64,000 nucleotides of DNA from Eledone cirrhosa. Its lineage: Eukaryota. The stretch spans positions 152,458,001 through 152,522,000 of the forward strand of contig OZ024740.1 in NCBI GenBank assembly GCA_964016885.1, given 5' to 3'. The position numbers and the translations under genes are program-made. How positions within the stretch are numbered: position 1 is the first letter of the stretch; each line of letters begins with the position of its first letter. Positions 7,512 through 41,362 of the stretch are shown piece after piece. Below the pieces are notes generated by a model, which was given only the letters and a program-made list of their open reading frames with translations, was not told the origin of the DNA and did no database searches.

Positions 7512-8407
7512 CAACAACAAAAGATAGGTCCAAGGCTCTTGGCACCCGGAGGAGTTCTGGAAATTACTCCGCCCCCATGGAAAACACAATGCAATACACA
7601 TAAAATCTTCTTGAACCAAAGGGGCCACCTATACTCGAACTCCTTACCTACACTAATTACCAAAATTAATAACACCACCACCACCAAAACTAACAATATC
7701 ACCTACAACATAATCGTAAAAACAACAGTAATTTCAACCAACAGCATTTACAATCTGTACATCCCTATCATGAACAAACCATCACCCCTTCCGCCCCCCT
7801 TCAACAACAACAACACTGCCACCATGACACAACATCATCTTTAGCACTATCTTAATCTCTATCGTCACTTTCAACAAATATATCACCATTCCCATTAAAG
7901 AAACAACTCCAACCTCCACACACACACACATATCTATATATTCTTTCTAAGTATCCGCTGCATATTCAATACTTACTGTGATGATCGCCTATAATACAGT
8001 TGCGGGTGTGTATGTGACCGCTGTGGGTGTATAAATGCCCATATGTACCACGCCTGCGCAAGACATGGACAAGGGTGCGGGGGCCTACAGGTTGAGAAGG
8101 CTGCGACAGGGCGCGAGTGGTTCAATCATACAACCCCTTACCTCCTACAATAGTAATTCCTAATTTAAGAAACTACTTTGATTGACGGGTGGCAAATGAA
8201 AGGAACTAAATATACGACGGCTATGAGTGGCCAAAAATACCGATGACGTGTACAATTCTTGACCACTCATCGAATGACAACAACAGGATCTAAGCGTGCC
8301 TCGAGCTGGTCGCCAGAGAAACGATTGTAATATGTCTAATAAATTTTATTTGTCGCAACACTGATTCTCCGTTTCTTATGTGATATATATATATATATAT
8401 GTATGTT

Positions 8408-8442
<35 letters not shown>

Positions 8443-8443
8443 T

Positions 8444-8490
<47 letters not shown>

Positions 8491-8491
8491 T

Positions 8492-8537
<46 letters not shown>

Positions 8538-8542
<5 letters not shown>

Positions 8543-11500
8543 ATAAATGCTCTGAAATAGCGATATATATGTGAATATAGACATAGAATATTCGAAAATA
8601 TTCTGTATGTTTAAAATAAACATTTTGAAGACCTAATCGCTATAGAATAGAATACGTCACGTATTACAATTAGATTCTCGATAAAAGCAAGGGAAGTAAT
8701 CTACGCGTTTCATTCTCGTTAGAAATCATCAGGACTACATATCCAGTGCTTTTATCGAGAATGACACAGCTAGAGACTTATAGAATACTTAGCTGTGTAC
8801 AGGAACTGGTTTGAAAGAGCGGTTGCCGGTCCGGCAGAAATTAGAAATTGGAATAAATGCTCTGAAATAGCGATATATATGTGAATATAGACATAGAATA
8901 TTCGAAAATATTCTGTATGTTTAAAATAAACATTTTGAAGACCTAATCGCTATAGAATAGAATACGTCACGTATTACAATTAGATTCTCGATAAAAGCAA
9001 GGGAAGTAATCTACGCGTTTCATTCTCGTTAGAAATCATCAGGACTACATATCCAGTGCTTTTATCGAGAATGACACAGCTAGAGACTTATAGAATACTT
9101 AGCTGTGTACAGGAACTGGTTTGAAAGAGCGGTTGCCGGTCCGGCAGAAATTAGAAATTGGAATAAATGCTCTGAAATAGCGATATATATGTGAATATAG
9201 ACATAGAATATTCGAAAATATTCTGTATGTTTAAAATAAACATTTTGAAGACCTAATCGCTATAGAATAGAATACGTCACGTATTACAATTAGATTCTCG
9301 ATAAAAGCAAGGGAAGTAATCTACGCGTTTCATTCTCGTTAGAAATCATCAGGACTACATATCCAGTGCTTTTATCGAGAATGACACAGCTAGAGACTTA
9401 TAGAATACTTAGCTGTGTACAGGAACTGGTTTGAAAGAGCGGTTGCCGGTCCGGCAGAAATTAGAAATTGGAATAAATGCTCTGAAATAGCGATATATAT
9501 GTGAATATAGACATAGAATATTCGAAAATATTCTGTATGTTTAAAATAAACATTTTGAAGACCTAATCGCTATAGAATAGAATACGTCACGTATTACAAT
9601 TAGATTCTCGATAAAAGCAAGGGAAGTAATCTACGCGTTTCATTCTCGTTAGAAATCATCAGGACTACATATCCAGTGCTTTTATCGAGAATGACACAGC
9701 TAGAGACTTATAGAATACTTAGCTGTGTACAGGAACTGGTTTGAAAGAGCGGTTGCCGGTCCGGCAGAAATTAGAAATTGGAATAAATGCTCTGAAATAG
9801 CGATATATATGTGAATATAGACATAGAATATTCGAAAATATTCTGTATGTTTAAAATAAACATTTTGAAGACCTAATCGCTATAGAATAGAATACGTCAC
9901 GTATTACACTTAGATTCTCGATAAAAGCAAGGGAAGTAATCTACGCGTTTCATTCTCGTTAGAAATCATCAGGACTACATATCCAGTGCTTTTATCGAGA
10001 ATGACACAGCTAGAGACTTATAGAATACTTAGCTGTGTACAGGAACTGGTTTGAAAGAGCGGTTGCCGGTCCGGCAGAAATTAGAAATTGGAATAAATGC
10101 TCTGAAATAGCGATATATATGTGAATATAGACATAGAATATTCGAAAATATTCTGTATGTTTAAAATAAACATTTTGAAGACCTAATCGCTATAGAATAG
10201 AATACGTCACGTATTACAATTAGATTCTCGATAAAAGCAAGGGAAGTAATCTACGCGTTTCATTCTCGTTAGAAATCATCAGGACTACATATCCAGTGCT
10301 TTTATCGAGAATGACACAGCTAGAGACTTATAGAATACTTAGCTGTGTACAGGAACTGGTTTGAAAGAGCGGTTGCCGGTCCGGCAGAAATTAGAAATTG
10401 GAATAAATGCTCTGAAATAGCGATATATATGTGAATATAGACATAGAATATTCGAAAATATTCTGTATGTTTAAAATAAACATTTTGAAGACCTAATCGC
10501 TATAGAATAGAATACGTCACGTATTACAATTAGATTCTCGATAAAAGCAAGGGAAGTAATCTACGCGTTTCATTCTCGTTAGAAATCATCAGGACTACAT
10601 ATCCAGTGCTTTTATCGAGAATGACACAGCTAGAGACTTATAGAATACTTAGCTGTGTACAGGAACTGGTTTGAAAGAGCGGTTGCCGGTCCGGCAGAAA
10701 TTAGAAATTGGAATAAATGCTCTGAAATAGCGATATATATGTGAATATAGACATAGAATATTCGAAAATATTCTGTATGTTTAAAATAAACATTTTGAAG
10801 ACCTAATCGCTATAGAATAGAATACGTCACGTATTACAATTAGATTCTCGATAAAAGCAAGGGAAGTAATCTACGCGTTTCATTCTCGTTAGAAATCATC
10901 AGGACTACATATCCAGTGCTTTTATCGAGAATGACACAGCTAGAGACTTATAGAATACTTAGCTGTGTACAGGAACTGGTTTGAAAGAGCGGTTGCCGGT
11001 CCGGCAGAAATTAGAAATTGGAATGAATGCTCTGAAATAGCGATATATATGTGAATATAGACATAGAATATTCGAAAATATTCTGTATGTTTAAAATAAA
11101 CATTTTGAAGACCTAATCGCTATAGAATAGAATACGTCACGTATTACAATTAGATTCTCGATAAAAGCAAGGGAAGTAATCTACGCGTTTCATTCTCGTT
11201 AGAAATCATCAGGACTACATATCCAGTGCTTTTATCGAGAATGACACAGCTAGAGACTTATAGAATACTTAGCTGTGTACAGGAACTGGTTTGAAAGAGC
11301 GGTTGCCGGTCCGGCAGAAATTAGAAATTGGAATAAATGCTCTGAAATAGCGATATATATGTGAATATAGACATAGAATATTCGAAAATATTCTGTATGT
11401 TTAAAATAAACATTTTGAAGACCTAATCGCTATAGAATAGAATACGTCACGTATTACAATTAGATTCTCGATAAAAGCAAGGGAAGTAATCTACGCGTTT

Positions 11501-11941
11501 CATTCTCGTTAGAAATCATCAGGACTACATATCCAGTGCTTTTATCGAGAATGACACAGCTAGAGACTTATAGAATACTTAGCTGTGTACAGGAACTGGT
11601 TTGAAAGAGCGGTTGCCGGTCCGGCAGAAATTAGAAATTGGAATAAATGCTCTGAAATAGCGATATATATGTGAATATAGACATAGAATATTCGAAAATA
11701 TTCTGTATGTTTAAAATAAACATTTTGAAGACCTAATCGCTATAGAATAGAATACGTCACGTATTACAATTAGATTCTCGATGAAAGCAAGGGAAGTAAT
11801 CTACGCGTTTCATTCTCGTTAGAAATCATCAGGACTACATATCCAGTGCTTTTATCGAGAATGACACAGCTAGAGACTTATAGAATACTTAGCTGTGTAC
11901 AGGAACTGGTTTGAAAGAGCGGTTGCCGGTCCGGCAGAAAT
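8538..11941 (-). repeat. Tandem array of 11 x 310-bp hammerhead-containing monomer (retrozyme-like), left arm
   Basis: Exact 310-bp period (gaataaatgc at 8541, 8851 ... 11641); each unit has an HHR on the minus strand; (TA)n at the outer end. Confidence 0.95.
8696..8738 (-). ncRNA. Type I hammerhead ribozyme (first of 11 minus-strand copies, period 310)
   Basis: Reverse complement: gtagtc-CTGATGA-tttctaacgagaat-GAAA-cgcg-TA-gattac. Confidence 0.85.
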
Positions 11942-14900
11942 GTTTATTTTAAACATACAGAATATTTTCGAATATTCTATGTCTATATTCACATATATAT
12001 CGCTATTTCAGAGCATTTATTCCAATTTCTAATTTCTGCCGAACCGGCAACCGCTCTTTCAAACCAGTTCCTGTACACAGCTAAGTATTCTATAAGTCTC
12101 TAGCTGTGTCATTCTCGATAAAAGCACTGGATATGTAGTCCTGATGATTTCTAACGAGAATGAAACGCGTAGATTACTTCCCTTGCTTTTATCGAGAATC
12201 TAATTGTAATACGTGACGTATTCTATTCTATAGCGATTAGGTCTTCAAAATGTTTATTTTAAACATACAGAATATTTTCGAATATTCTATGTCTATATTC
12301 ACATATATATCGCTATTTCAGAGCATTTATTCCAATTTCTAATTTCTGCCGGACCGGCAACCGCTCTTTCAAACCAGTTCCTGTACACAGCTAAGTATTC
12401 TATAAGTCTCTAGCTGTGTCATTCTCGATAAAAGCACTGGATATGTAGTCCTGATGATTTCTAACGAGAATGAAACGCGTAGATTACTTCCCTTGCTTTT
12501 ATCGAGAATCTAATTGTAATACGTGACGTATTCTATTCTATAGCGATTAGGTCTTCAAAATGTTTATTTTAAACATACAGAATATTTTCGAATATTCTAT
12601 GTCTATATTCACATATATATCGCTATTTCAGAGCATTTATTCCAATTTCTAATTTCTGCCGGACCGGCAACCGCTCTTTCAAACCAGTTCCTGTACACAG
12701 CTAAGTATTCTATAAGTCTCTAGCTGTGTCATTCTCGATAAAAGCACTGGATATGTAGTCCTGATGATTTCTAACGAGAATGAAACGCGTAGATTACTTC
12801 CCTTGCTTTTATCGAGAATCTAATTGTAATACGTGACGTATTCTATTCTATAGCGATTAGGTCTTCAAAATGTTTATTTTAAACATACAGAATATTTTCG
12901 AATATTCTATGTCTATATTCACATATATATCGCTATTTCAGAGCATTTATTCCAATTTCTAATTTCTGCCGGACCGGCAACCGCTCTTTCAAACCAGTTC
13001 CTGTACACAGCTAAGTATTCTATAAGTCTCTAGCTGTGTCATTCTCGATAAAAGCACTGGATATGTAGTCCTGATGATTTCTAACGAGAATGAAACGCGT
13101 AGATTACTTCCCTTGCTTTTATCGAGAATCTAATTGTAATACGTGACGTATTCTATTCTATAGCGATTAGGTCTTCAAAATGTTTATTTTAAACATACAG
13201 AATATTTTCGAATATTCTATGTCTATATTCACATATATATCGCTATTTCAGAGCATTTATTCCAATTTCTAATTTCTGCCGGACCGGCAACCGCTCTTTC
13301 AAACCAGTTCCTGTACACAGCTAAGTATTCTATAAGTCTCTAGCTGTGTCATTCTCGATAAAAGCACTGGATATGTAGTCCTGATGATTTCTAACGAGAA
13401 TGAAACGCGTAGATTACTTCCCTTGCTTTTATCGAGAATCTAATTGTAATACGTGACGTATTCTATTCTATAGCGATTAGGTCTTCAAAATGTTTATTTT
13501 AAACATACAGAATATTTTCGAATATTCTATGTCTATATTCACATATATATCGCTATTTCAGAGCATTTATTCCAATTTCTAATTTCTGCCGGACCGGCAA
13601 CCGCTCTTTCAAACCAGTTCCTGTACACAGCTAAGTATTCTATAAGTCTCTAGCTGTGTCATTCTCGATAAAAGCACTGGATATGTAGTCCTGATGATTT
13701 CTAACGAGAATGAAACGCGTAGATTACTTCCCTTGCTTTTATCGAGAATCTAATTGTAATACGTGACGTATTCTATTCTATAGCGATTAGGTCTTCAAAA
13801 TGTTTATTTTAAACATACAGAATATTTTCGAATATTCTATGTCTATATTCACATATATATCGCTATTTCAGAGCATTTATTCCAATTTCTAATTTCTGCC
13901 GGACCGGCAACCGCTCTTTCAAACCAGTTCCTGTACACAGCTAAGTATTCTATAAGTCTCTAGCTGTGTCATTCTCGATAAAAGCACTGGATATGTAGTC
14001 CTGATGATTTCTAACGAGAATGAAACGCGTAGATTACTTCCCTTGCTTTTATCGAGAATCTAATTGTAATACGTGACGTATTCTATTCTATAGCGATTAG
14101 GTCTTCAAAATGTTTATTTTAAACATACAGAATATTTTCGAATATTCTATGTCTATATTCACATATATATCGCTATTTCAGAGCATTTATTCCAATTTCT
14201 AATTTCTGCCGGACCGGCAACCGCTCTTTCAAACCAGTTCCTGTACACAGCTAAGTATTCTATAAGTCTCTAGCTGTGTCATTCTCGATAAAAGCACTGG
14301 ATATGTAGTCCTGATGATTTCTAACGAGAATGAAACGCGTAGATTACTTCCCTTGCTTTTATCGAGAATCTAATTGTAATACGTGACGTATTCTATTCTA
14401 TAGCGATTAGGTCTTCAAAATGTTTATTTTAAACATACAGAATATTTTCGAATATTCTATGTCTATATTCACATATATATCGCTATTTCAGAGCATTTAT
14501 TCCAATTTCTAATTTCTGCCGGACCGGCAACCGCTCTTTCAAACCAGTTCCTGTACACAGCTAAGTATTCTATAAGTCTCTAGCTGTGTCATTCTCGATA
14601 AAAGCACTGGATATGTAGTCCTGATGATTTCTAACGAGAATGAAACGCGTAGATTACTTCCCTTGCTTTTATCGAGAATCTAATTGTAATACGTGACGTA
14701 TTCTATTCTATAGCGATTAGGTCTTCAAAATGTTTATTTTAAACATACAGAATATTTTCGAATATTCTATGTCTATATTCACATAGATATCGCTATTTCA
14801 GAGCATTTATTCCAATTTCTAATTTCTGCCGGACCGGCAACCGCTCTTTCAAACCAGTTCCTGTACACAGCTAAGTATTCTATAAGTCTCTAGCTGTGTC

Positions 14901-16030
14901 ATTCTCGATAAAAGCACTGGATATGTAGTCCTGATGATTTCTAACGAGAATGAAACGCGTAGATTACTTCCCTTGCTTTTATCGAGAATCTAATTGTAAT
15001 ACGTGACGTATTCTATTCTATAGCGATTAGGTCTTCAAAATGTTTATTTTAAACATACAGAATATTTTCGAATATTCTATGTCTATATTCACATATATAT
15101 CGCTATTTCAGAGCATTTATTCCAATTTCTAATTTCTGCCGGACCGGCAACCGCTCTTTCAAACCAGTTCCTGTACACAGCTAAGTATTCTATAAGTCTC
15201 TAGCTGTGTCATTCTCGATAAAAGCACTGGATATGTAGTCCTGATGATTTCTAACGAGAATGAAACGCGTAGATTACTTCCCTTGCTTTTATCGAGAATC
15301 TAATTGTAATACGTGACGTATTCTATTCTATAGCGATTAGGTCTTCAAAATGTTTATTTTAAACATACAGAATATTTTCGAATATTCTATGTCTATATTC
15401 ACATATATATCGCTATTTCAGAGCATTTATTCCAATTTCTAATTTCTGCCGGACCGGCAACCGCTCTTTCAAACCAGTTCCTGTACACAGCTAAGTATTC
15501 TATAAGTCTCTAGCTGTGTCATTCTCGATAAAAGCACTGGATATGTAGTCCTGATGATTTCTAACGAGAATGAAACGCGTAGATTACTTCCCTTGCTTTT
15601 ATCGAGAATCTAATTGTAATACGTGACGTATTCTATTCTATAGCGATTAGGTCTTCAAAATGTTTATTTTAAACATACAGAATATTTTCGAATATTCTAT
15701 GTCTATATTCACATATATATCGCTATTTCAGAGCATTTATTCCAATTTCTAATTTCTGCCGGACCGGCAACCGCTCTTTCAAACCAGTTCCTGTACACAG
15801 CTAAGTATTCTATAAGTCTCTAGCTGTGTCATTCTCGATAAAAGCACTGGATATGTAGTCCTGATGATTTCTAACGAGAATGAAACGCGTAGATTACTTC
15901 CCTTGCTTTTATCGAGAATCTAATTGTAATACGTGACGTATTCTATTCTATAGCGATTAGGTCTTCAAAATGTTTATTTTAAACATACAGAATATTTTCG
16001 AATATTCTATGTCTATATTCACATATATAT
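11938..16030 (+). repeat. Tandem array of 13.2 x the same 310-bp monomer in the opposite orientation, right arm
   Basis: tgtttatttt at 11941, 12251 ... 15971; reverse complement of the left-arm unit; merges into (TA)n at about 16025. Confidence 0.95.
12135..12177 (+). ncRNA. Type I hammerhead ribozyme (first of 13 plus-strand copies, period 310)
   Basis: Helix I gtagtc/gattac, CUGAUGA 12141-12147, helix II ttct-aacg-agaa, GAAA 12162-12165, palindromic helix III cgcg, GUA site at 12171; distal helix I extension 12111-12126 pairs with 12184-12199. Confidence 0.85.
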
Positions 16031-16041
16031 ATATATATATA

Positions 16042-16098
<57 letters not shown>

Positions 16099-16113
16099 AT
16101 GTGTGTCTGTATG

Positions 16114-16153
<40 letters not shown>

Positions 16154-20802: not shown

Positions 20803-21056
20803 TATGAAAAAAACCACAAACCCTCCATCTCAATTCTACTTTTGAAAAGCATAAGAACTGCGAAACCGGTAAAGGAACCAAATAAATATTCTTAAAAAGA
20901 CTCCAGCTGCATTTTCAATTTCATATTTTTTCCTTATATATATATATATATATATAAGGATTAAAATACTGGAGCGTGTTGGAGTTAAACACCCTCTTCG
21001 TATTATAGAAATGACAGTAAAAGGTATAGCTCAATGTAATTAAACAGAGCCGAAGA

Positions 21057-21310
21057 ATTATGAAAATAAAACAAAGAAGCCTTCAATACATCAAAAGTCT
21101 TTATTAGCCAACAATGTTTCGTCCTATTAAGGACTCATCAGGGCAATCAAAACCACAAGAAGTACTATTGGCCAATACAAGCCGGCTTGTATTGGCCGAT
21201 AGTACTTCTTGTGGTTTTGATTGCCCTGATGAGTCCTTAATAGGACGAAACATTGTTGGCTAATAAAGACTTTTGATGTATTGAAGGCTTTTTTGTTTTA
21301 TTTTCATAAT
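21057..21310. repeat. 254-bp spacerless palindrome carrying two divergent HHRs
   Basis: Centre acaa-gccggc-ttgt at 21183/21184; arms nearly identical. Confidence 0.95.
21223..21260 (+). ncRNA. Minimal type I hammerhead ribozyme (mirror copy 21107-21144 on minus)
   Basis: gcc-CTGATGA-gtcct-taat-aggac-GAAA-cattg-TT-ggc. Confidence 0.85.
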
Positions 21311-21327
21311 ATATATATATATATATA

Positions 21328-21990
21328 GTAATTAATAATAATAAATGTGAAGACTAAAATATAAAGAGGGCTCGATGAGGATAAATATATATCAAATATA
21401 TAAGAACCCTAGAGCAAATATTTATTAAAATAAAAGATTAAAGTTTAAGCAAAGAATCGCTGCTTTCACCCTTAACGGGATCTTCTGAAACTAAAAAAAA
21501 TCAATCTGTGAACGCAGAAGGAAATATTTCGAAAAACGTTGCAACCGGAGGAAAACAGAAAGACGATGCTTTGGTTCGTGAAGATGTTCCCTGGCAATGA
21601 ACGGAAAAAAGCGAAGACAATACGTCGTTATATGGAGCAATGAGAACAATTACACGCAAAGACAAAACCATGTTTATGGTATAAATGGAGTTATTAGACT
21701 AATACGAGCTCGTATTCTATTTAGGAAACCGAATGATTCTCGGCTTCGGAGTTAAGAATAATTGTTTCTACTTTTGGCACAAGGCCAGCAATAATCCAGT
21801 GCATTACTGGTGCTTTATTTTATCGACCCCGGAAGGATGAAAGGCAAAGTTAACCTCGGAGTTAAGAATAATGTAAATAAATTAGTTGAACGAAAATTAT
21901 AAAGGTTATTAAATATGCATACACGCATCTATATACGTACATACACGTGCATACGCGAAAAAACACGCCTTGCATATACTAGCACGTACA
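21328..21990 (-). repeat. Second copy of the 2457/26096 repeat family, interrupted by a SINE
   Basis: Sequence similarity to 2457-2800 and 26096-26445. Confidence 0.75.
21763..21855 (-). mobile_element. 5'-truncated SINE (family A) with ~17-bp target-site duplication
   Basis: tcggagttaagaataat at 21746-21762 and 21856-21872 flanks the SINE body. Confidence 0.85.
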
Positions 21991-24217: not shown

Positions 24218-25030
24218 AAATCAAAGAACGCCTACATACTCATACAATTTTTATTTGCTGACAATGTTTCATCCATACCATTGGGCAGGAATCATCAGAG
24301 CTTTATAAACAAAAATACAGTGCTGAGTATAAGCTCTACCGAGCTTAGTCACATGGACATTAGAAATACAATAGAGGGTAACAAGAGGGAGATCGGAAAT
24401 GGCGAGTATGGAGAGAGTGCTTAGTGGGGTTGTTATTCAGCACTACAGCTAAATGCAATGGTACAGGCAGATTATTTCACAAGATGCACAAGCACGTGAG
24501 GGCACACAAAAGCAAAAAGTATAAACAATAGTTAAAACATATAATAATAAAGTAAAAGGAAAATAATAATATAAAGAGATAAAAAAAATTAAATAAGAAA
24601 AAAGAAAAATGTTAAAGCACACAAAAAACAGAGGAAGCTATGCATTGGTCACTATATATAACAGGTGATTTAGTTCTCCATAACTTAGAGTTATAGAAAT
24701 ACTAAAAGACTCCCAAGGTACCTTTAGAAAGCCCAAATGGGATTTTATTCCTCCCCATAGTATACATAATCAAGGTATACTATTAGGTTACGGGATTATG
24801 TGGACCATGGGTGCTAAACCTGTATATAGACAGGCACCACATAAATACAAGCCGAACACAAGCAAAGCGGGGTTATTGCATGACCAACGTAAGCAAAAAT
24901 ACATAACAAAAATGGTTATACTCAGCACTGTATTTTTGTTTATAAAGCTCTGATGATTCCTGCCCAATGGTATGGATGAAACATTGTCAGCAAATAAAAA
25001 TTGTATGAGTATGTAGGCGTTCTTTGATTT
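24218..25030. mobile_element. Non-coding element with 115-bp inverted arms, each carrying an HHR
   Basis: Arms 24218-24332 and 24916-25030 are reverse complements around a ~580-bp spacer. Confidence 0.9.
24947..24991 (+). ncRNA. Type I hammerhead ribozyme (mirror copy 24257-24301 on minus)
   Basis: gct-CTGATGA-ttcctgcccaatggtatggat-GAAA-cattg-TC-agc. Confidence 0.8.
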
Positions 25031-26608: not shown

Positions 26609-26752
26609 TATAGTTGTTATATAGTAAGGTGCATTATTGGTTGTGTAAAATGGTCCAATAAATTTATGTTAGCAATATTAAGTTCTCCACGCTTTTGTAT
26701 ATCTCCAATTCCATTCAAGGGAACAGCTAGATGATGTAAAACGGAGTATAAG

Positions 26753-30116
<3,364 letters not shown>

Positions 30117-33514: not shown

Positions 33515-33570
<56 letters not shown>

Positions 33571-33642
33571 GGTAAACATTGTTACAATTCAATTCAAGCA
33601 CTCAACGTACTTTTTCCACATAGGAGTGACGGAGTAAATATC

Positions 33643-34067
33643 GAATAAGTAAAAGCGAAGTAGTTTCGGATGTTCAAGTCCTTTAATAATAATGCTGTGA
33701 TATATATTTCAATGACGACACTGGCTACACTGTTCTGTGTGCGAGTGTCGTGACATCATCAGACAGCTTGTTACATAATAAGGTTGTTTCCGAGGCAATC
33801 CAAATTGAATCGACATGGGAACGGATGAAGTTCGTGCTTTTGGGTTTTTCAAGGGCGGATGAAAAACCCAAAAGCACGAACTTCATCTGTTCCCATGTCG
33901 ATTCAATTTGGATTGCCTCGGAAACAACCTTATTATGTAACAAGCTGTCTGATGATGTCACGACACTCGCACACAGAACAGTGTGGCCAGTGTCGTCATT
34001 GAAATATATATCACAGCATTATTATTAAAGGACTTGAACATCTGAAACTACTTCGCTTTTACTTATT

Positions 34068-34068
<1 letters not shown>
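33643..34068. repeat. 426-bp palindrome (8-nt spacer) with two divergent HHRs
   Basis: Arms 33643-33851 and 33860-34068 nearly identical; TA tracts on both sides. Confidence 0.95.
33944..34017 (+). ncRNA. Type I hammerhead ribozyme with 45-nt helix II (mirror copy 33694-33767 on minus)
   Basis: gctgt-CTGATGA-tgtcacgacact...agtgtcgtcatt-GAAA-tatata-TC-acagc. Confidence 0.8.
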
Positions 34069-34129
<61 letters not shown>

Positions 34130-34130
<1 letters not shown>

Positions 34131-34663
34131 GCTTTGTTGGTTGACCACTGGATAGAACTGATCATTCCGTATGGTCAACCTCGATGTAATATTATGGAGA
34201 GCACTCAACGTAATGCAACTCACCGGTCTTCGTTAGCGTAGTTGGCGGTGCGAGTATGGAGTTAATTATTATAAAATGACAGGAAGCTGGACTGGTGTAA
34301 GTCTTTGAGAGTTTTATTATACTATCAACATGTCAATGACCGGGTTCAGTATAAATCCGGTGAAATCATCAGGTATTCAAAATATAACAAAGGAATATAA
34401 CAGATAAAATCCATGGGGCTTAAAATCAGAGACATGAGGACGACTGACTTGAGGGCGGCCGACAAAGGTAGAAGCTACTAAATAGTCGGTCGTCCTCTTG
34501 ACTCTGATTTTCAGCCCCATGGAATTTATATGTTATATTCCTTTGTTATATTTTGAATACCTGATGATGTCACCGGATTCATACTGAACCCGGACATTAA
34601 AATGATCATGGTATAATAAACTTTTCAAGGATTTACACCAGTAAGCATCCTGTTATTTTATAA
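34130..34663. mobile_element. Older fold-back element with diverged inverted arms (34269-34449 and 34484-34663) and decayed HHRs
   Basis: atac-CTGATGA-..-aaaa-tgatca-tg-gtat at 34557-34614 and its mirror; homologue at 19384-19748. Confidence 0.75.
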
Positions 34664-34673
34664 TATATATATA

Positions 34674-37600
34674 CTAGCTTTTTTCCATCCACTGAATTAT
34701 TTTTGTATTGGATCCCTGTGTCTGCGCATCGCCAGGAATCTTAACCGAAAATTGACTCCCTGAAGAAGAAAGGATTCTCCATGGTCTCCATTTGGAGACT
34801 ATGTATATCCCCTTTCAGAAACTAATTAGTTGGAGTGAAATTTCAGTAAGTGAGTTTATTACTATAATTTTCTTATTTTACGTCTTTTATATAATTGTTC
34901 TACATCTCTTTGTATTGAACCACAAAGGTACTGAGACAAAACCTATATCTCTCCTAGCGTAAGTATGCATCTGTATACATATATTGGTAGATATATTAAT
35001 TCTTTAAAATTATCTCTAAATTATTTTGTTGAGCAAAAATTTGCCTAAATTACTATTGTGGTTCATAGTAGTAAATTTCGCTACTGTCTTTTTAACACCC
35101 ACTCCTCACTGACTAACCTCGATGTCACGTGATTGATTCTATTGAAATTGCTACTGACCATGAAGGCAGTGAAGTTTTCAATGGCTTGGAATTTAGTCCA
35201 CGCTAAATTTTTTCCATACACTGAATTATTTTTGTATTGGATCCCTGTGTCCGCACATCGCCAGGAATCATAACCGAGAATTGATTCCCTGATGAAGAAA
35301 GGATTCTCCATGGTCTCCATTTAGAGACTATGTATATCCCCTTTCAGAAACTAATTAGTTAGAGTGAAATATATATAAGTGAGTTAATTACTATAATTTT
35401 CTTATTTTACGTCTTTTATATAATTGTTCTACATCTCTTTGTATTGAACCACAAAGTTACTAAGACAAAACCTATATCTCTGCTAGCGTAAGTATACATC
35501 TGTATAAATATGTTGGTAGATATACTAATTCTTTATAATTATCTCCAAATTATTTTGTTGAGCAAATATTCCCTTAAATTACTACTATGGTTCATAGTAT
35601 TATATTTGACTACTGTCTTTTTAAGACCCCACTCATCACTGATTAATGTCGATGTCACGTGGTTGATTCTTTTGAATCTGCCACTGAACATGAAGGCAGT
35701 GAAGTTTTCAATGGCTTGGAATTTAGTCCGCGCTAGATTTTTTCCATCCACTGAATTATTTTTGTATTGGATGCCTGTGTCCGCGCATCGCCAGGATTCT
35801 TAACCGAAAATTGATTCCCTGAGGAAGAAAGGATTATCCATGTTCTCCATTTAGAGACTATGTATATCCCCTTTCAGAAACTAATTAGTTGGAGTGAAAT
35901 TTAAGTAAGAGAGTTAATTACTATAATTTTCTTATTTTACGTCTTTTATATAATTGTTCTACATCTCTTTGTATTGAACCACAAAGGTACTAAGACAAAA
36001 CCTATATCTCTGCTAGCGTAAGTATGCATCTGTATACATATTTTGGTAGATATACTAATTCTTTAAAATTATCTCCAAATTATTTTGTTGAGCAAAGTTT
36101 GCCTAAATTATTACTATGGTTCATAGTATTATATTTGGCTACTGTCTTTTTAACACCCACTCCTCACTGATTAACCTTGATGTCACGTGATTGATTCTAT
36201 TGAGATTGTTACTGACCATGAAGGCAATGAAGTTTTCAATGGCTTGGAATTTAGTCCACGCTAGCTTTTTTCCATCCACTGAATTATTTTTGTATTGGAT
36301 CCCTGTGTCCGCACATCACCAGGAATCTTAACCGAGAATTGATTCCCCGACGAAGAAAGGATTCTCCATGGTCTCCATTTGGAGACTATGTATATCCCCT
36401 TTCAGAAACTAATTAGTTGGAGTGAAATTTAAGTAAGTGAGTTAATTACTATAATTTTCTTATTTTACGTCTTTTATATAATTGCTCTACATCTCTTTGT
36501 ATTGAACCTCAAAGGTACTAAGACAAAACCTATATCTCTCCTAGCGTAAGTATGCATCTGTATACATATATTGGTAGATGTACTAATTATTTAAAATTAT
36601 CTCCAAATTATTTTGTTGAGCAAAGTTTGCCTAAATTATTACTATGGTTCATAGTATTATATTTGGCTACTGTCTTTTTAACACCCCACTCCTCACTGAT
36701 TAACCTCGATGACACGTGGTTGATTCTTTTGAATTTATCATTGACCATGAAGGCAGTGAAATTTTCAATGGCTTGGAATTTAGTCCGCGTTAGATTTTTT
36801 CCATACACTGAATTATTTTTGTATTGGATCCCTGTGTCCGCGCATCGCCAGGAATATTAACCGAAAATTGATTCCCTGCGGAAGAAAGGATTATCCATGT
36901 TCGCCATTTGGAGACTATGTATATCCCCTTTTAGAAACTAATTAGTTGGAGTGAAATTTAAGTAAGAGAGTTAATTACTATAATTTTCTTACTTTACGTC
37001 TTTTATATAATTGTTCTACATCTCTCTGTATTGAACCACAAAGTTACTAAGACAAAACCTATATCTCTACTAGCGTAAGTATACATCTGTATAAATATAT
37101 TGGTAGATCTACTAATTCTTTATAATTATCTCCAAATTATTTTGTTGAGCAAATATTCCCCTAAATTACTACTATGGTTCATAGTATTAAATTTGGCTAC
37201 TGTCTTTTTAACACCCCACTCCTCACTGATTAACCTCGATGTCACGTGGTTGATTCTTTTGAATTTGCCACTGACCATGAAGGCAGTGAAATTTTCGATG
37301 GCTTGGAATTTAGTCCGCGCTAGCTTTTTTCCATCCTCTGAATTATTTTTGTATTGGATCCCTGTGTCCGCGCATCGCCGCGAATCTTAACCGAAAATTG
37401 ACTCCCTGATGAAGAAAGGATTCCCCGTTGTCTCCATTTGGAGACTATATATATATTCCCTTTCAGAAACTAATTAGTTGGAGTGAAATTTAAGTAAGTG
37501 AGTTTATTACTATAATTTTCTTATTTTACGTCTTTTATATAATTGTTCTACATCTCTCTGTATTGAACCACAAAGTTACTAAGACAAAACCTATATCTCT

Positions 37601-40600
37601 ACTAGCATAAGTATACATCTGTATAAATATGTTGGTAGATATACTACTTCTTTATAATTATCTCCGAATTATTTTGTTAAGCAAATATTTCCCTAAATTA
37701 CTACTATGGTTCATAGTATTAAATTTAGCGACTGTCTTTTTAACGTCCACTCCTCACTGATTAACCTCGATGTCACGTGATTGATTCTATTGAAATTGCT
37801 ACTGACCATGAAGGCAGTGAAGTTTTCAATGGCTTGGAATATAGTCCGCGCTAGCTTTTTTCCATCCACTGAATTATTTTTGTATTGGATCCCTGTGTCC
37901 GGGCATCGCCAAGAATCTTAACTGAGAATTGACTCACCCATGAAGAAAGGATTCTCCATGGTCTCCATTTGGAGACTATATATATCCCCTTTCAGAAACT
38001 AATTAATTGGAGTGAAATTTATGTAAGTGAGTTAATTAGTATAATTTTCTTATTTTACGTCTTTTATATAATTGTTCTACATCTCTCTGTATTGAACCAC
38101 AAACATACTAAGACAAAACCTATATCTCTGCTAGCGTAAGTATACAACTGTATAAATATGTTGGTAGATATACTAATACTTTATAATTATCTCCAAATTA
38201 TTTTGTTGAGCAAAAATTTGCCTAAATTACTACTATGGTTCATAATATTATATTTGGCTACTGTCTTTTTAAGACCTCACTCATCACTGATTAATGTCGA
38301 TGTCACGTGGTTGATTCTTTTGAATCTGCCACTGACCATGAAGGCAGTGAAATTTTCAATTGCTTGGAATATAGTCCGCGCTAGCTTTTTTCCATCCACT
38401 GAATTATCTTTGTATTGGATCCCTGTGTCCGCGATTCGCCAGGAATCTTAACTGAAAATTGACTCCCTGATGAAGAAAGGATTCTCCGCTGTCTCCATTT
38501 GGAGACTATATATATCCCCTTTCAGAAACTAATTAGTTGGAGTGAAATTTAAGTAAGTGAGTTCATTAGTATAATTTTCTTATTTTACGTCTTTTATATA
38601 ATTGTTCTACATCTCTCTGTATTAAACCACAAACATACTAAGCCAAAACCTATATCTCTGCTAGCGTAAGTATACAACAGTATAAATATGTTGGTAGATA
38701 TACTAATGCTTTATAATTATCTACAAATTATTTTGTTGAACAAAAGTTTGCCTAAATTACTACTATGGTTCATAATATTATATTTGACTACTGTCTTTTT
38801 AAGACCCCACTCATCACTGATTAATGTCGATGTCACGTGGTTGATTCTTTTGAATCTGCCACTGAACATGAAGGCAGTGAAGTTTTCAATGGCTTGGAAT
38901 TTAGTCCGCGCTAGATTTTTTCCATCCACTGCATTATTTTTGTATTGGATGCCTGTGTCCGCGCATCGCCAGGATTCTTAACCGAAAATTGATTCCCTGA
39001 GGAAGAAAGGATTATCCATGTTCTCCATTTGGAGACTATGTATATCCCCTTTCAGAAACTAATTAGTTGGAGTGAAATTTAAGTAAGAGAGTTAATTACT
39101 ATAATTTTCTTATTTTACGTCTTTTATATAATTGTTCTACATCTCTCTGTATTGAACCACAAACATACTAAGACAAAACCTATATCTCTGCTAGCGTAAG
39201 TATACAACTGTATAAATATGTTGGTAGATATACTAATACTTTATAATTATCTCCAAATTATTTTGTTGAGCAAAAATTTGCCTAAATTACTACTATGGTT
39301 CATAATATTATATTTGGCTACTGTCTTTTTAAGACCCCACTCATCACTGATTAATGTCGATGTCACGTGGTTGATTCTTTTGAATCTGCCACTGACCCTG
39401 AAGGCAGTTAAATTTTCAATGGCTTGGAATTTAGTCCGCGTTAGATTTTTTCCATACACTGAATTATTTTTGTATTGGATCCCTGTGTCCGCGCATCGCC
39501 AGGAATATTAACCGAAAATTGATTCCCTGCGGAAGAAAGGATTATCCATGTTCGCCATTTGGAGACTATGTATATCCCCTTTTAGAAACTAATTAGTTGG
39601 AGTGAAATTTAAGTAAGCGAGTTTATTACTATAATTTTCTTATTTTACGTCTTTTATATAATTGTTCTACATCTCTCTGTATTGAACCACAAAGTTACTA
39701 AGACAAAACCTATATCTCTACTAGCGTAAGTATACATCTGTATAAATATGTTGGTAGATATACTACTTCTTTATAATTATCTCCGAATTATTTTGTTAAG
39801 CAAATATTTCCCTAAATTACTACTATGGTTCATAGTATTAAATTTAGCTACTGTCTTTTTAACGCCCACTCCTCACTGATTAACCTCGATGTCACGTGAT
39901 TGATTCTATTGAAATTGCTACTGACCACGAAGGCAGTGAAGTTTTCAATGGCTTGGAATATAGTCTGCGCTAGCTTTTTTCCATCCACTGAATTATTTTT
40001 GTATTGGATCCCTGTGTCCGGGCATCGCCAAGAATCTTAACTGAGAATTGACTCACCCATGAAGAAAGGATTATCCATGGTCTCCATTTGGAGACTATAT
40101 ATATCCCCTTTCAGAAACTAATTAATTGGAGTGAAATTTATGTAAGTGAGTTAATTAGTATAATTTTCTTATTTTACGTCTTTTATATAATTGTTCTACA
40201 TCTCTCTGTATTGAACCACAAACATACTAAGACAAAACCTATATCTCTGCTAGCGTAAGTATACAACTGTATAAATATGTTGGTAGATATACTACTTCTT
40301 TATAATTATCTCCAAATTATTTTGTTGAGCAAAAATTTGCCTAAATTACTACTATGGTTCATAATATTATATTTGGTTACTGTCTTTTTAAGACCTCACT
40401 CATCACTGATTAATGTCGATGTCACGTGGTTGATTCTTTTGAATCTGCCCCTGACCATGAAGGCAGTGAAATTTTCAATTGCTTGGAATATAGTCCGTGC
40501 TAGCTTTTTTCCATCCACTGAATTATTTTTGTATTGGATCCCTGTGTCCGCGCATCGCCACGAATCTTAACCGAAAATTGACTCCCTGATGAAGAAAGGA

Positions 40601-41355
40601 TTCTCCGTTGTATCCATTTGGAGACTATATATATCCCCTTTCAGAAACTAATTAGTTGGAGTGAAATTTATGTAATTGAGTTAATTAGTATAATTTTCTT
40701 ATTTTACGTCTTTTATATGATTGTTCTACATCTCTTTGTATTGAACCACAAAGGTACTAAGAGAAAACCTATATCTCTGCGAGCGTAAGTATACATCTGT
40801 ATAAATATGTTGGTAGATATACTAATTCTTTATAATTATCTCGAAATTATTATGTTGACCAAATATTTTCCTAAATTACTACTATGGTTCATAGTATTAT
40901 ATTTGGCTACTCTCTTCTTAACAACCTACTCCTCATTGCTTACCCTCGATGTCACGTGATTGATTCTTTTGAAATTGCCACTGACCATGAAGGCAGTGAA
41001 GTTTTCAATGGCTTGGAATTTAGTCCACGCTAGCATTTCCATACACTGAATTATTTTTGTATTGGATCCTCGTGTCCGCGCATCGCCAGGAATCTTAACT
41101 GAGAATTGACTCGCTGATGAAGCAAGGATTGTCCATGGTCTCCATTTGGAGACTATATATATCCCTTTTCAGAAACTAATTAGTTGGAGTGAAATTTAAG
41201 TAAGTGAGTTAATTAATATAATTTTCTTATTTTACGTCTTTTATATAATTGTTCTACATCTCTTTGTATTGAACCACAAAGGTACTAAGACAAAACCTAT
41301 ATCTCTGCTAGCGTAAGTATACATCTGTATAAATATGTTTGTAGATATACTAATT

Positions 41356-41362
<7 letters not shown>
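34674..41362 (+). repeat. Tandem array of ~12.6 x ~530-bp hammerhead-containing monomer (retrozyme-like), diverged copies
   Basis: HHR core positions at 34760, 35289, 35819, 36347, 36876, 37406, 37937, 38467, 38997, 39527, 40056, 40586 and 41114; TA tracts at both ends. Confidence 0.95.
34755..34836 (+). ncRNA. Type I hammerhead ribozyme with 51-nt helix II (first of 13)
   Basis: actcc-CTGAAGA-agaaagg..catggtctcca-ttt-ggagactatg..cctttca-GAAA-ctaattag-TT-ggagt. Confidence 0.85.

What the first reader, a model, noticed from the sequence alone, without database searches (positions are those of the whole stretch)
8538..16030. 7.5-kb divergent array of 24 near-identical hammerhead-ribozyme monomers (candidate very young retrozyme insertion)
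Seen: the 310-bp 'satellite' unit holds a full type I HHR (gtagtc-CUGAUGA-helix II-GAAA-cgcg-UA-gattac). Eleven copies face left and 13 face right, with (TA)n at both outer ends. I saw only five substitutions by eye (9909, 11025, 11783, 12042, 14786). Established: metazoan non-LTR retrozymes are tandem HHR repeats of a few hundred nt that yield circular RNAs; minimal HHRs with palindromic helix III cleave as dimers; PLE insertions often have an inverted 5' copy. Inference: one recent event in which a 310-nt circular RNA was reverse-transcribed round and round and inserted with a PLE-style inversion, giving a multi-kb palindrome. I do not know of such a bidirectional retrozyme concatemer being described.
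Basis: partly seen in the sequence, partly recalled or inferred. Interest (0 to 1): 0.9.

Follow-up and report, generated by a model that had tools for sequence, protein, structure and literature searches.

The report
Two-armed hammerhead retrozyme, Penelope footprint
This array is one large insertion of a young 310-base repeat carrying a self-cutting RNA motif, found as back-to-back arrays at well over a thousand places in this animal genome, and its ends and shared mutations suggest that a Penelope-type jumping-gene enzyme likely copied one small RNA, probably a circle, from both sides of a DNA cut.

Summary
The array is real: 11.0 left-facing and 13.2 right-facing 310-bp units, five substitutions, one type I hammerhead each. 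It is not unique: the genome holds about 19,400 units and over 1,400 of each end type. Of 130 loci, 108 are clean head-to-head pairs, none tail-to-tail; 104 of 104 resolved pairs have one short and one tailed end in (TA)n, like 14 of 14 coding Penelope loci here. Both arms share one haplotype in 83 of 85 loci (shuffled mean 10). All 24 window units carry a variant found in 46 units genome-wide. Hammerhead variants that spread are structure-compatible (10 of 10, versus 2 of 14 single-copy). Best reading: a non-LTR retrozyme copied by Penelope machinery from both DNA ends on one RNA, mostly a monomer circle. Six loci point to multimer templates or switching. Cleavage, circles and the partner enzyme are untested. 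This scan already reported this family on other DNA of this genome, and similar families elsewhere.

The parts
8383..8538 (.). (TA)n-rich microsatellite, left half of the target
   Evidence: an empty (TA)n site exists in paralogs of another locus (L051 versus L143/L147)
8537..11941 (-). Left arm, 10.98 units; outer (3') end at unit position 165 = tailed end; inner end at position 171 (position 1 = first base after the predicted cut)
8537..8562 (-). 26-bp tail present only on this arm
   Evidence: tail concept from PMC8557442, PMC3846280, PMC11167929
11938..11941 (.). Centre joint, 4-nt microhomology AAAT, head-to-head
   Evidence: family-wide microhomology excess
11938..16030 (+). Right arm, 13.20 units; inner end at position 77; outer (3') end at position 139 = short end, whose ATATATAT merges into the (TA)n
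12135..12177 (+). One of 24 type I hammerhead motifs; predicted cut after 12171
   Evidence: sequence; variant pattern; stem I in predicted fold; activity untested
12172..12481 (+). One 310-nt monomer, cut site to cut site; non-coding, self-paired
   Evidence: fold z -4.2 linear, -3.4 circular
12259..12259 (+). Rare variant T at unit position 88, present in all 24 units of both arms
   Evidence: 46 units genome-wide against 19,330 with A
16023..16152 (.). (TA)n-rich microsatellite, right half of the target

Best explanation
The array is one insertion of an abundant, young, non-coding 310-nt hammerhead repeat (non-LTR retrozyme) that was likely written into a (TA)n tract by a Penelope-like reverse transcriptase working from both ends of the cut DNA on one RNA, probably a monomer circle. 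Shown: head-to-head arms, one short and one tailed end per locus, one haplotype per locus, the same footprint in coding Penelope elements. Inferred steps: array transcripts self-cleave (likely as dimers) and monomers are circularised; the enzyme cuts both strands of (TA)n; one 3' end primes at the AUAUAUAU stretch (positions about 131-139, by pairing), the other 26-33 nt downstream (165-172, little pairing); both copy the same RNA for a random number of turns; the two cDNA ends are joined by microhomology and filled in. Odds: two-ended Penelope-type priming 0.85; monomer circle for this locus 0.7.
For: 108 of 130 loci head-to-head, 0 tail-to-tail; 104 of 104 resolved = one short + one tailed end (52/52). 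9 of the first 10 loci listed by an end-independent pattern are minus-then-plus. Two coding RT+GIY-YIG families show the same rule in 5 of 5 and 9 of 9 loci with both ends readable. Same haplotype in both arms in 83 of 85 loci; permutation mean 10.2, max 20. 18 variants private to one locus are in every unit of both arms (17 of 108 loci, 0.16 per locus), matching 0.16 single-copy variants per unit (170 in 320,797 bases), as expected if each locus samples one unit. Only 3 of 108 loci share single-copy variants in register, against about 49 variants expected if templates were transcripts of arrays like today's. Inner ends do not pile up at the cut site (5 of 216, 5.6 expected), so templates are not mostly cut linear RNA. 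Centre microhomology mean 2.2 nt against 0.75 by chance, 44 of 66 joints; 22 have inserts. Propagated hammerhead variants 10 of 10 tolerated against 2 of 14 single-copy ones, p 7e-5; A>G is 11 of 36 propagated against 17 of 170 single variants, p 0.003. PAc cuts both strands, starts at two internal sites that define the tail, and is a predicted dimer (PMC11167929).
Against: 6 of 108 loci cannot come from one unchanged monomer circle: in-register single-unit variants in both arms (L084, L131, L095), out-of-register ones (L070, L123), haplotype change within an arm (L113); L034 and L033 from the first search also show this. The longest arms (L067, L070, L071, L193/194) carry recurring variants that fit local DNA duplication. 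21 of 130 loci have one arm only (15 short, 6 tailed; some lie at or near assembly gaps). L033 has two short ends. No coding Penelope element with the retrozyme's conserved block was found. Helices II and III are weak in the predicted monomer fold (0.13-0.15 and 0) and Rfam misses the motif. In a published test 8 of 9 Xenopus retrozyme dimers did not cleave; PAc starts without homology and needs no cleavage in vitro. If most single-copy variants arose after insertion, the 49-versus-3 contrast weakens.
Confidence: 0.68

Rival explanations
1. Same two-ended Penelope-type priming, but the template is mostly an uncut linear multimer (or multimer circle) transcribed from an existing array.
For: In-register or offset single-unit variants in both arms at L084, L131, L095, L070, L123, L113 and L034; period-2 variant in part of L033; weak helix II/III; axolotl accumulates multimers (PMC7229834); PAc uses unprocessed RNA in vitro.
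Against: Cannot by itself fix a new variant in every unit of both arms (18 cases; the window's T88); only 3 of 108 in-register cases; selection for an intact ribozyme; no centre joint shared between loci among 66, apart from one duplicated locus that was dropped.
Confidence: 0.2
2. A short Penelope-type stub with an inverted copy inserted first and each arm then grew in place by slippage or unequal exchange (local amplification as proposed in 10.64898/2026.07.22.740005).
For: Recurring variants in the longest arms, e.g. a 45-unit arm; a duplicated centre at L058.
Against: The window's five variants are all single; 170 single variants against few recurring ones; stubs shorter than one unit could not regenerate full units; arm lengths look close to exponential from below one unit upward (p 0.10).
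Confidence: 0.07
3. One synthesis followed by fold-back or self-priming makes the inverted arm (self-priming idea of PMC3846280), or the palindrome is a sequencing fold-back chimera.
For: Head-to-head geometry; palindromic joints are described for rotifer Penelope elements.
Against: Neither arm bounds the other (49 of 104); the phase difference at the joint is uniform (p 0.47); variants are not mirrored; the two flanks differ and 108 loci have their own joints.
Confidence: 0.04

Closest known systems
Metazoan non-LTR retrozymes (Cervera and de la Pena 2020, PMC7229834, parts 2-4 of 6 read; review PMC7761336, passages; Li et al. 2026, 10.64898/2026.07.22.740005, parts 1-3 of 5 read)
   Same: Tandem 150-450-bp non-coding units, GC under 50%, one type I hammerhead per unit, self-paired monomer; the U-U at the base of helix II is also in axolotl HHR_Amex2; Penelope elements proposed as movers and a circle as template.
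   Different: The parts read describe tandem arrays only; no head-to-head arms, fixed internal ends, tail or (TA)n targeting. The review says the repeats show no motif that points to the mover. Cleavage and circles are shown there, not here. Supplements of these papers were not seen.
Endonuclease-bearing Penelope-like elements (PMC8557442 and PMC3846280, passages; PMC11167929, parts 1-2 of 4; PMC4209133, passages)
   Same: Inverted 5'-truncated copy, 30-40-bp tail often at one end only, microsatellite targets, two internal start sites, both-strand cutting; hammerhead pairs on opposite strands 100-700 bp apart were noted in Schistosoma.
   Different: No ORF; each arm is many turns of one unit; the one-tail rule is strict (104 of 104) and both arms trace to one RNA, which these passages do not report; the short end pairs with the target, unlike PAc.
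L1 twin priming (recalled, not read here)
   Same: Both target ends prime on one RNA, giving an inverted 5' part joined by microhomology.
   Different: In L1 the two cDNAs cover different parts of a linear RNA in a minority of insertions; here both start 26-33 nt apart, cover the same sequence, and this is the majority outcome.

Membership tests
non-LTR retrozyme | Tandem non-coding units of 150-450 bp, GC under 50%, no LTR | tested here: met
   310-bp units, GC 0.34-0.35; PBS/PPT were not searched for
non-LTR retrozyme | Complete type I hammerhead in each unit | tested here: met
   24 of 24 by motif reading; variant pattern; Rfam negative
non-LTR retrozyme | Dispersed multi-locus family | tested here: met
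   1,426 and 1,444 ends; about 19,400 units
non-LTR retrozyme | Stable self-paired monomer | tested here: met
   z -4.2 and -3.4; the antisense circle folds at least as well (-76 against -68 kcal/mol)
non-LTR retrozyme | Self-cleavage | not testable with these tools
   indirect only: 10 of 10 against 2 of 14
non-LTR retrozyme | Expressed as circular RNA | not testable with these tools
   no RNA holder listed
non-LTR retrozyme | Target-site duplication when present | tested here: inconclusive
   hidden by (TA)n at both ends
Penelope-mobilised element | Inverted 5'-truncated copy, head-to-head | tested here: met
   108 of 130 loci
Penelope-mobilised element | Tail at one end | tested here: met
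   104 of 104; 26-33 bp; one exception outside the set, L033
Penelope-mobilised element | Shared terminal sequence with an autonomous element | tested here: inconclusive
   none in two coding families or about 1 Mb of fetched DNA; other families not sampled
Autonomous Penelope-like element | RT plus GIY-YIG ORF | tested here: not met
   array is pure 310-bp units

The most novel reading that the evidence does not exclude
A Penelope protein dimer loads the two ends of a cut (TA)n tract onto two start sites 26-33 nt apart on one circular RNA, and both reverse transcriptases run round the circle one behind the other. The arrays would be a genomic record of double rolling-circle reverse transcription, and would explain the Penelope tail and inverted pLTR as one mechanism.
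Probability: 0.45. Interest if true: 0.85.

Novelty: new variant of a known kind. Interest (0 to 1): 0.66.

Why it matters
Two steps are proposed but, in the papers read, not shown: that animal retrozymes are reverse-transcribed from circles, and how Penelope elements make inverted copies and one-sided tails. A family with over a thousand near-identical insertions, each recording start sites, arm lengths and template haplotype, makes both directly testable with a 310-nt substrate. It also shows a non-coding ribozyme RNA adding about 6 Mb (19,400 x 310 bp, 0.2% of the genome) of multi-kilobase inverted repeats.

Tried and rejected
Public runs: 20 of 24 listed runs under 17 organism labels hold at least 54% of the monomer's words; no RNA holder listed. 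Three give a closed 340-nt contig, but X1, X2 and X10 also hold this genome's LINE at similar or higher depth, so trace carry-over of this animal's DNA is the simpler reading; not evidence for circles or horizontal spread (X3 was not given this control). X5 holds both at great depth, consistent with a DNA run of this or a close species. X24 raw reads: 0 laid, no test. Partner search: family A (82 stop-free matches at 99%) and family B (150 matches) share the footprint but not the sequence (output cut; 51; 81); 30 loci of a 317-nt sister family have no adjacent intact ORF. The single T88 unit in L034 is not a clean source of the window's lineage: it carries a core change the window lacks. Rfam gave only hairpin miRNA matches below gathering score and nothing for the 272-bp filler of L071. 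Fold-back, local amplification as the main route, and run-off at the cut site were tested and not supported. Rows dropped: L111 (same joint as L077, taken as a duplicate), L193 (merged with L194), 12-14 bases at arm ends, indels in the spectra. Paper searches that found no description of head-to-head retrozyme arrays: (listings; only the papers named were opened); subscription journals and supplements are not covered.

Full report
Observation. The array is as described: 10.98 units on minus (8537-11941) and 13.20 on plus (11938-16030), five single substitutions, (TA)n outside. Each unit has a type I hammerhead: 6-bp stem I, intact core, 4-bp helix II on a U-U, palindromic helix III (ACGCGU), predicted cut after 12171. 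Rfam misses it. The monomer folds better than shuffles (z -4.2; circular -3.4); stem I is predicted, helices II and III are not, which fits the dimer-type motifs described in PMC4209133 (passages) and PMC7229834. I number unit positions from the first base after the cut.

Family. A DNA search found identical or close units on other contigs, nearly all in head-to-head pairs. Exact patterns give 19,330 plus 46 units, 1,426 short ends (position 139 or just before, then TA) and 1,444 tailed ends (165 or 167, then TA). I took every locus listed by either end pattern in the first 197 Mb of C1: 60 pairs and 71 unpaired ends, 130 loci after dropping one duplicate, the window included. 108 are clean head-to-head pairs, one has three pieces, 21 have one arm, none is tail-to-tail. 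104 of 104 pairs with both ends resolved have one short and one tailed end; four have an end outside the stretch or at a gap. One locus outside this set has two short ends (L033). The window is large (3 of 104 are as long or longer; median 2.4 kb) but otherwise typical.

Who moved it. The inverted copy, one-sided tail and microsatellite target are known Penelope features (PMC8557442, PMC3846280, passages); PMC11167929 shows both-strand cutting and two internal start sites that define the tail. Two coding RT+GIY-YIG families in this genome follow the same rule in 5 of 5 and 9 of 9 loci with both ends readable (seven of the second family's loci were picked for having two arms, not for end type). 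Neither shares the retrozyme's conserved block, so the partner is not identified. One chimeric locus joins a family-B short end to a sister retrozyme's tailed end (L051); a single case.

Two syntheses, one RNA. The short-ended arm is the longer in 49 of 104 loci, so neither arm is a copy of the other; lengths correlate weakly (rho 0.29, p 0.002). The phase difference at the joint is uniform, against fold-back, and joints show microhomology (mean 2.2 nt against 0.75) or inserts (66 loci), as expected when two cDNA ends are joined (end-joining logic recalled). Yet both arms carry the same haplotype in 83 of 85 loci, against 10.2 under permutation.

Circle or multimer. For a monomer template: 18 private variants fill every unit of both arms in 17 of 108 loci, the rate expected if a locus samples one unit (0.16 against 0.16); only 3 loci share single-unit variants in register, where about 49 variants would be expected from transcripts of arrays like today's; inner ends are not enriched at the cut site (5 of 216, 5.6 expected). 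In the window all 24 units carry T88, seen in 46 units genome-wide: this locus, two others fixed for it, an older locus and one stray unit. Against: six loci need multimers or template switching, two more from the first search do too, the longest arms show local duplication, and the rate argument weakens if most single variants arose after insertion. I read this as mostly monomer circles with a minority of other routes.

Does the ribozyme matter? All 10 hammerhead variants that became fixed in loci fall in the free core position, loop II or keep pairing; only 2 of 14 single-copy variants do (p 7e-5; the classes rest on my pairing model). A>G changes are enriched among propagated variants (11 of 36 against 17 of 170, p 0.003), which fits RNA editing or selection for G-U pairs; I looked at this after seeing note e1-8803865. 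Cleavage and expression remain untested; the run searches gave no test.

Known and new. The element meets the sequence criteria of non-LTR retrozymes (PMC7229834; 10.64898/2026.07.22.740005), for which a circle template and Penelope movers are proposed. The texts read describe tandem arrays, and seven searches found no account of head-to-head retrozyme arrays with two fixed starts; supplements and subscription journals were not seen. Earlier notes of this scan report the same family in this genome and like families elsewhere; my reading was written before I opened them and they are not independent support. Verdict: real, a new variant of a known kind, valuable as a testable record of Penelope and retrozyme copying.

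Noticed in passing
window 34675-41358: Second array: 13 units of about 529 bp, 90-95% alike, one direction, ending in (TA)n; many units carry a type I hammerhead-like motif with long stem II and a 10-nt palindromic helix III. Likely an older retrozyme family.
   Followed up: no
window 20957-21329, 24218-25030, 26614-30036, 33568-34070, 34128-34672: Five more head-to-head elements with CUGAUGA cores on opposite strands, most flanked by (TA)n; 26614-30036 holds what reads by eye as a GIY-YIG-like fragment near 27900-28300.
   Followed up: partly
L055, L056, L052, L054, L098, L163-L192: Sister families about 70% like the unit (one of 317 nt) keep the block around both start sites and, in most two-armed loci read, the same short/tailed ends.
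   Followed up: partly
L051:7728-9234: Chimera: coding Penelope family-B arm with short end, switching into a sister retrozyme, opposite a retrozyme arm with tailed end; a lead to the partner enzyme.
   Followed up: partly
L138-L162 (e.g. G000:C3:86985792): Very young coding Penelope family, 82 stop-free matches at 99%, many with 777-codon frames, degenerate hammerhead-like motif near the 3' end.
   Followed up: partly
L040-L045 (G000:C28:43.30-43.36 Mb): One small two-armed insertion repeated 12 times inside a larger tandem segment: later DNA-level duplication.
   Followed up: no
L071:1450-1721: 272 bp of unrelated sequence captured at the centre joint; no Rfam match.
   Followed up: partly
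L064, L089, L091, L097, L124: Haplotypes with a one-base insertion 2-3 nt after the cut site, in all units; could be a ligation scar or a stem I bulge.
   Followed up: no
L193/L194 (G000:C1:97.46-97.48 Mb): 45-unit arm with irregularly recurring variants, a sign that long arms can grow into satellite-like arrays in place.
   Followed up: partly
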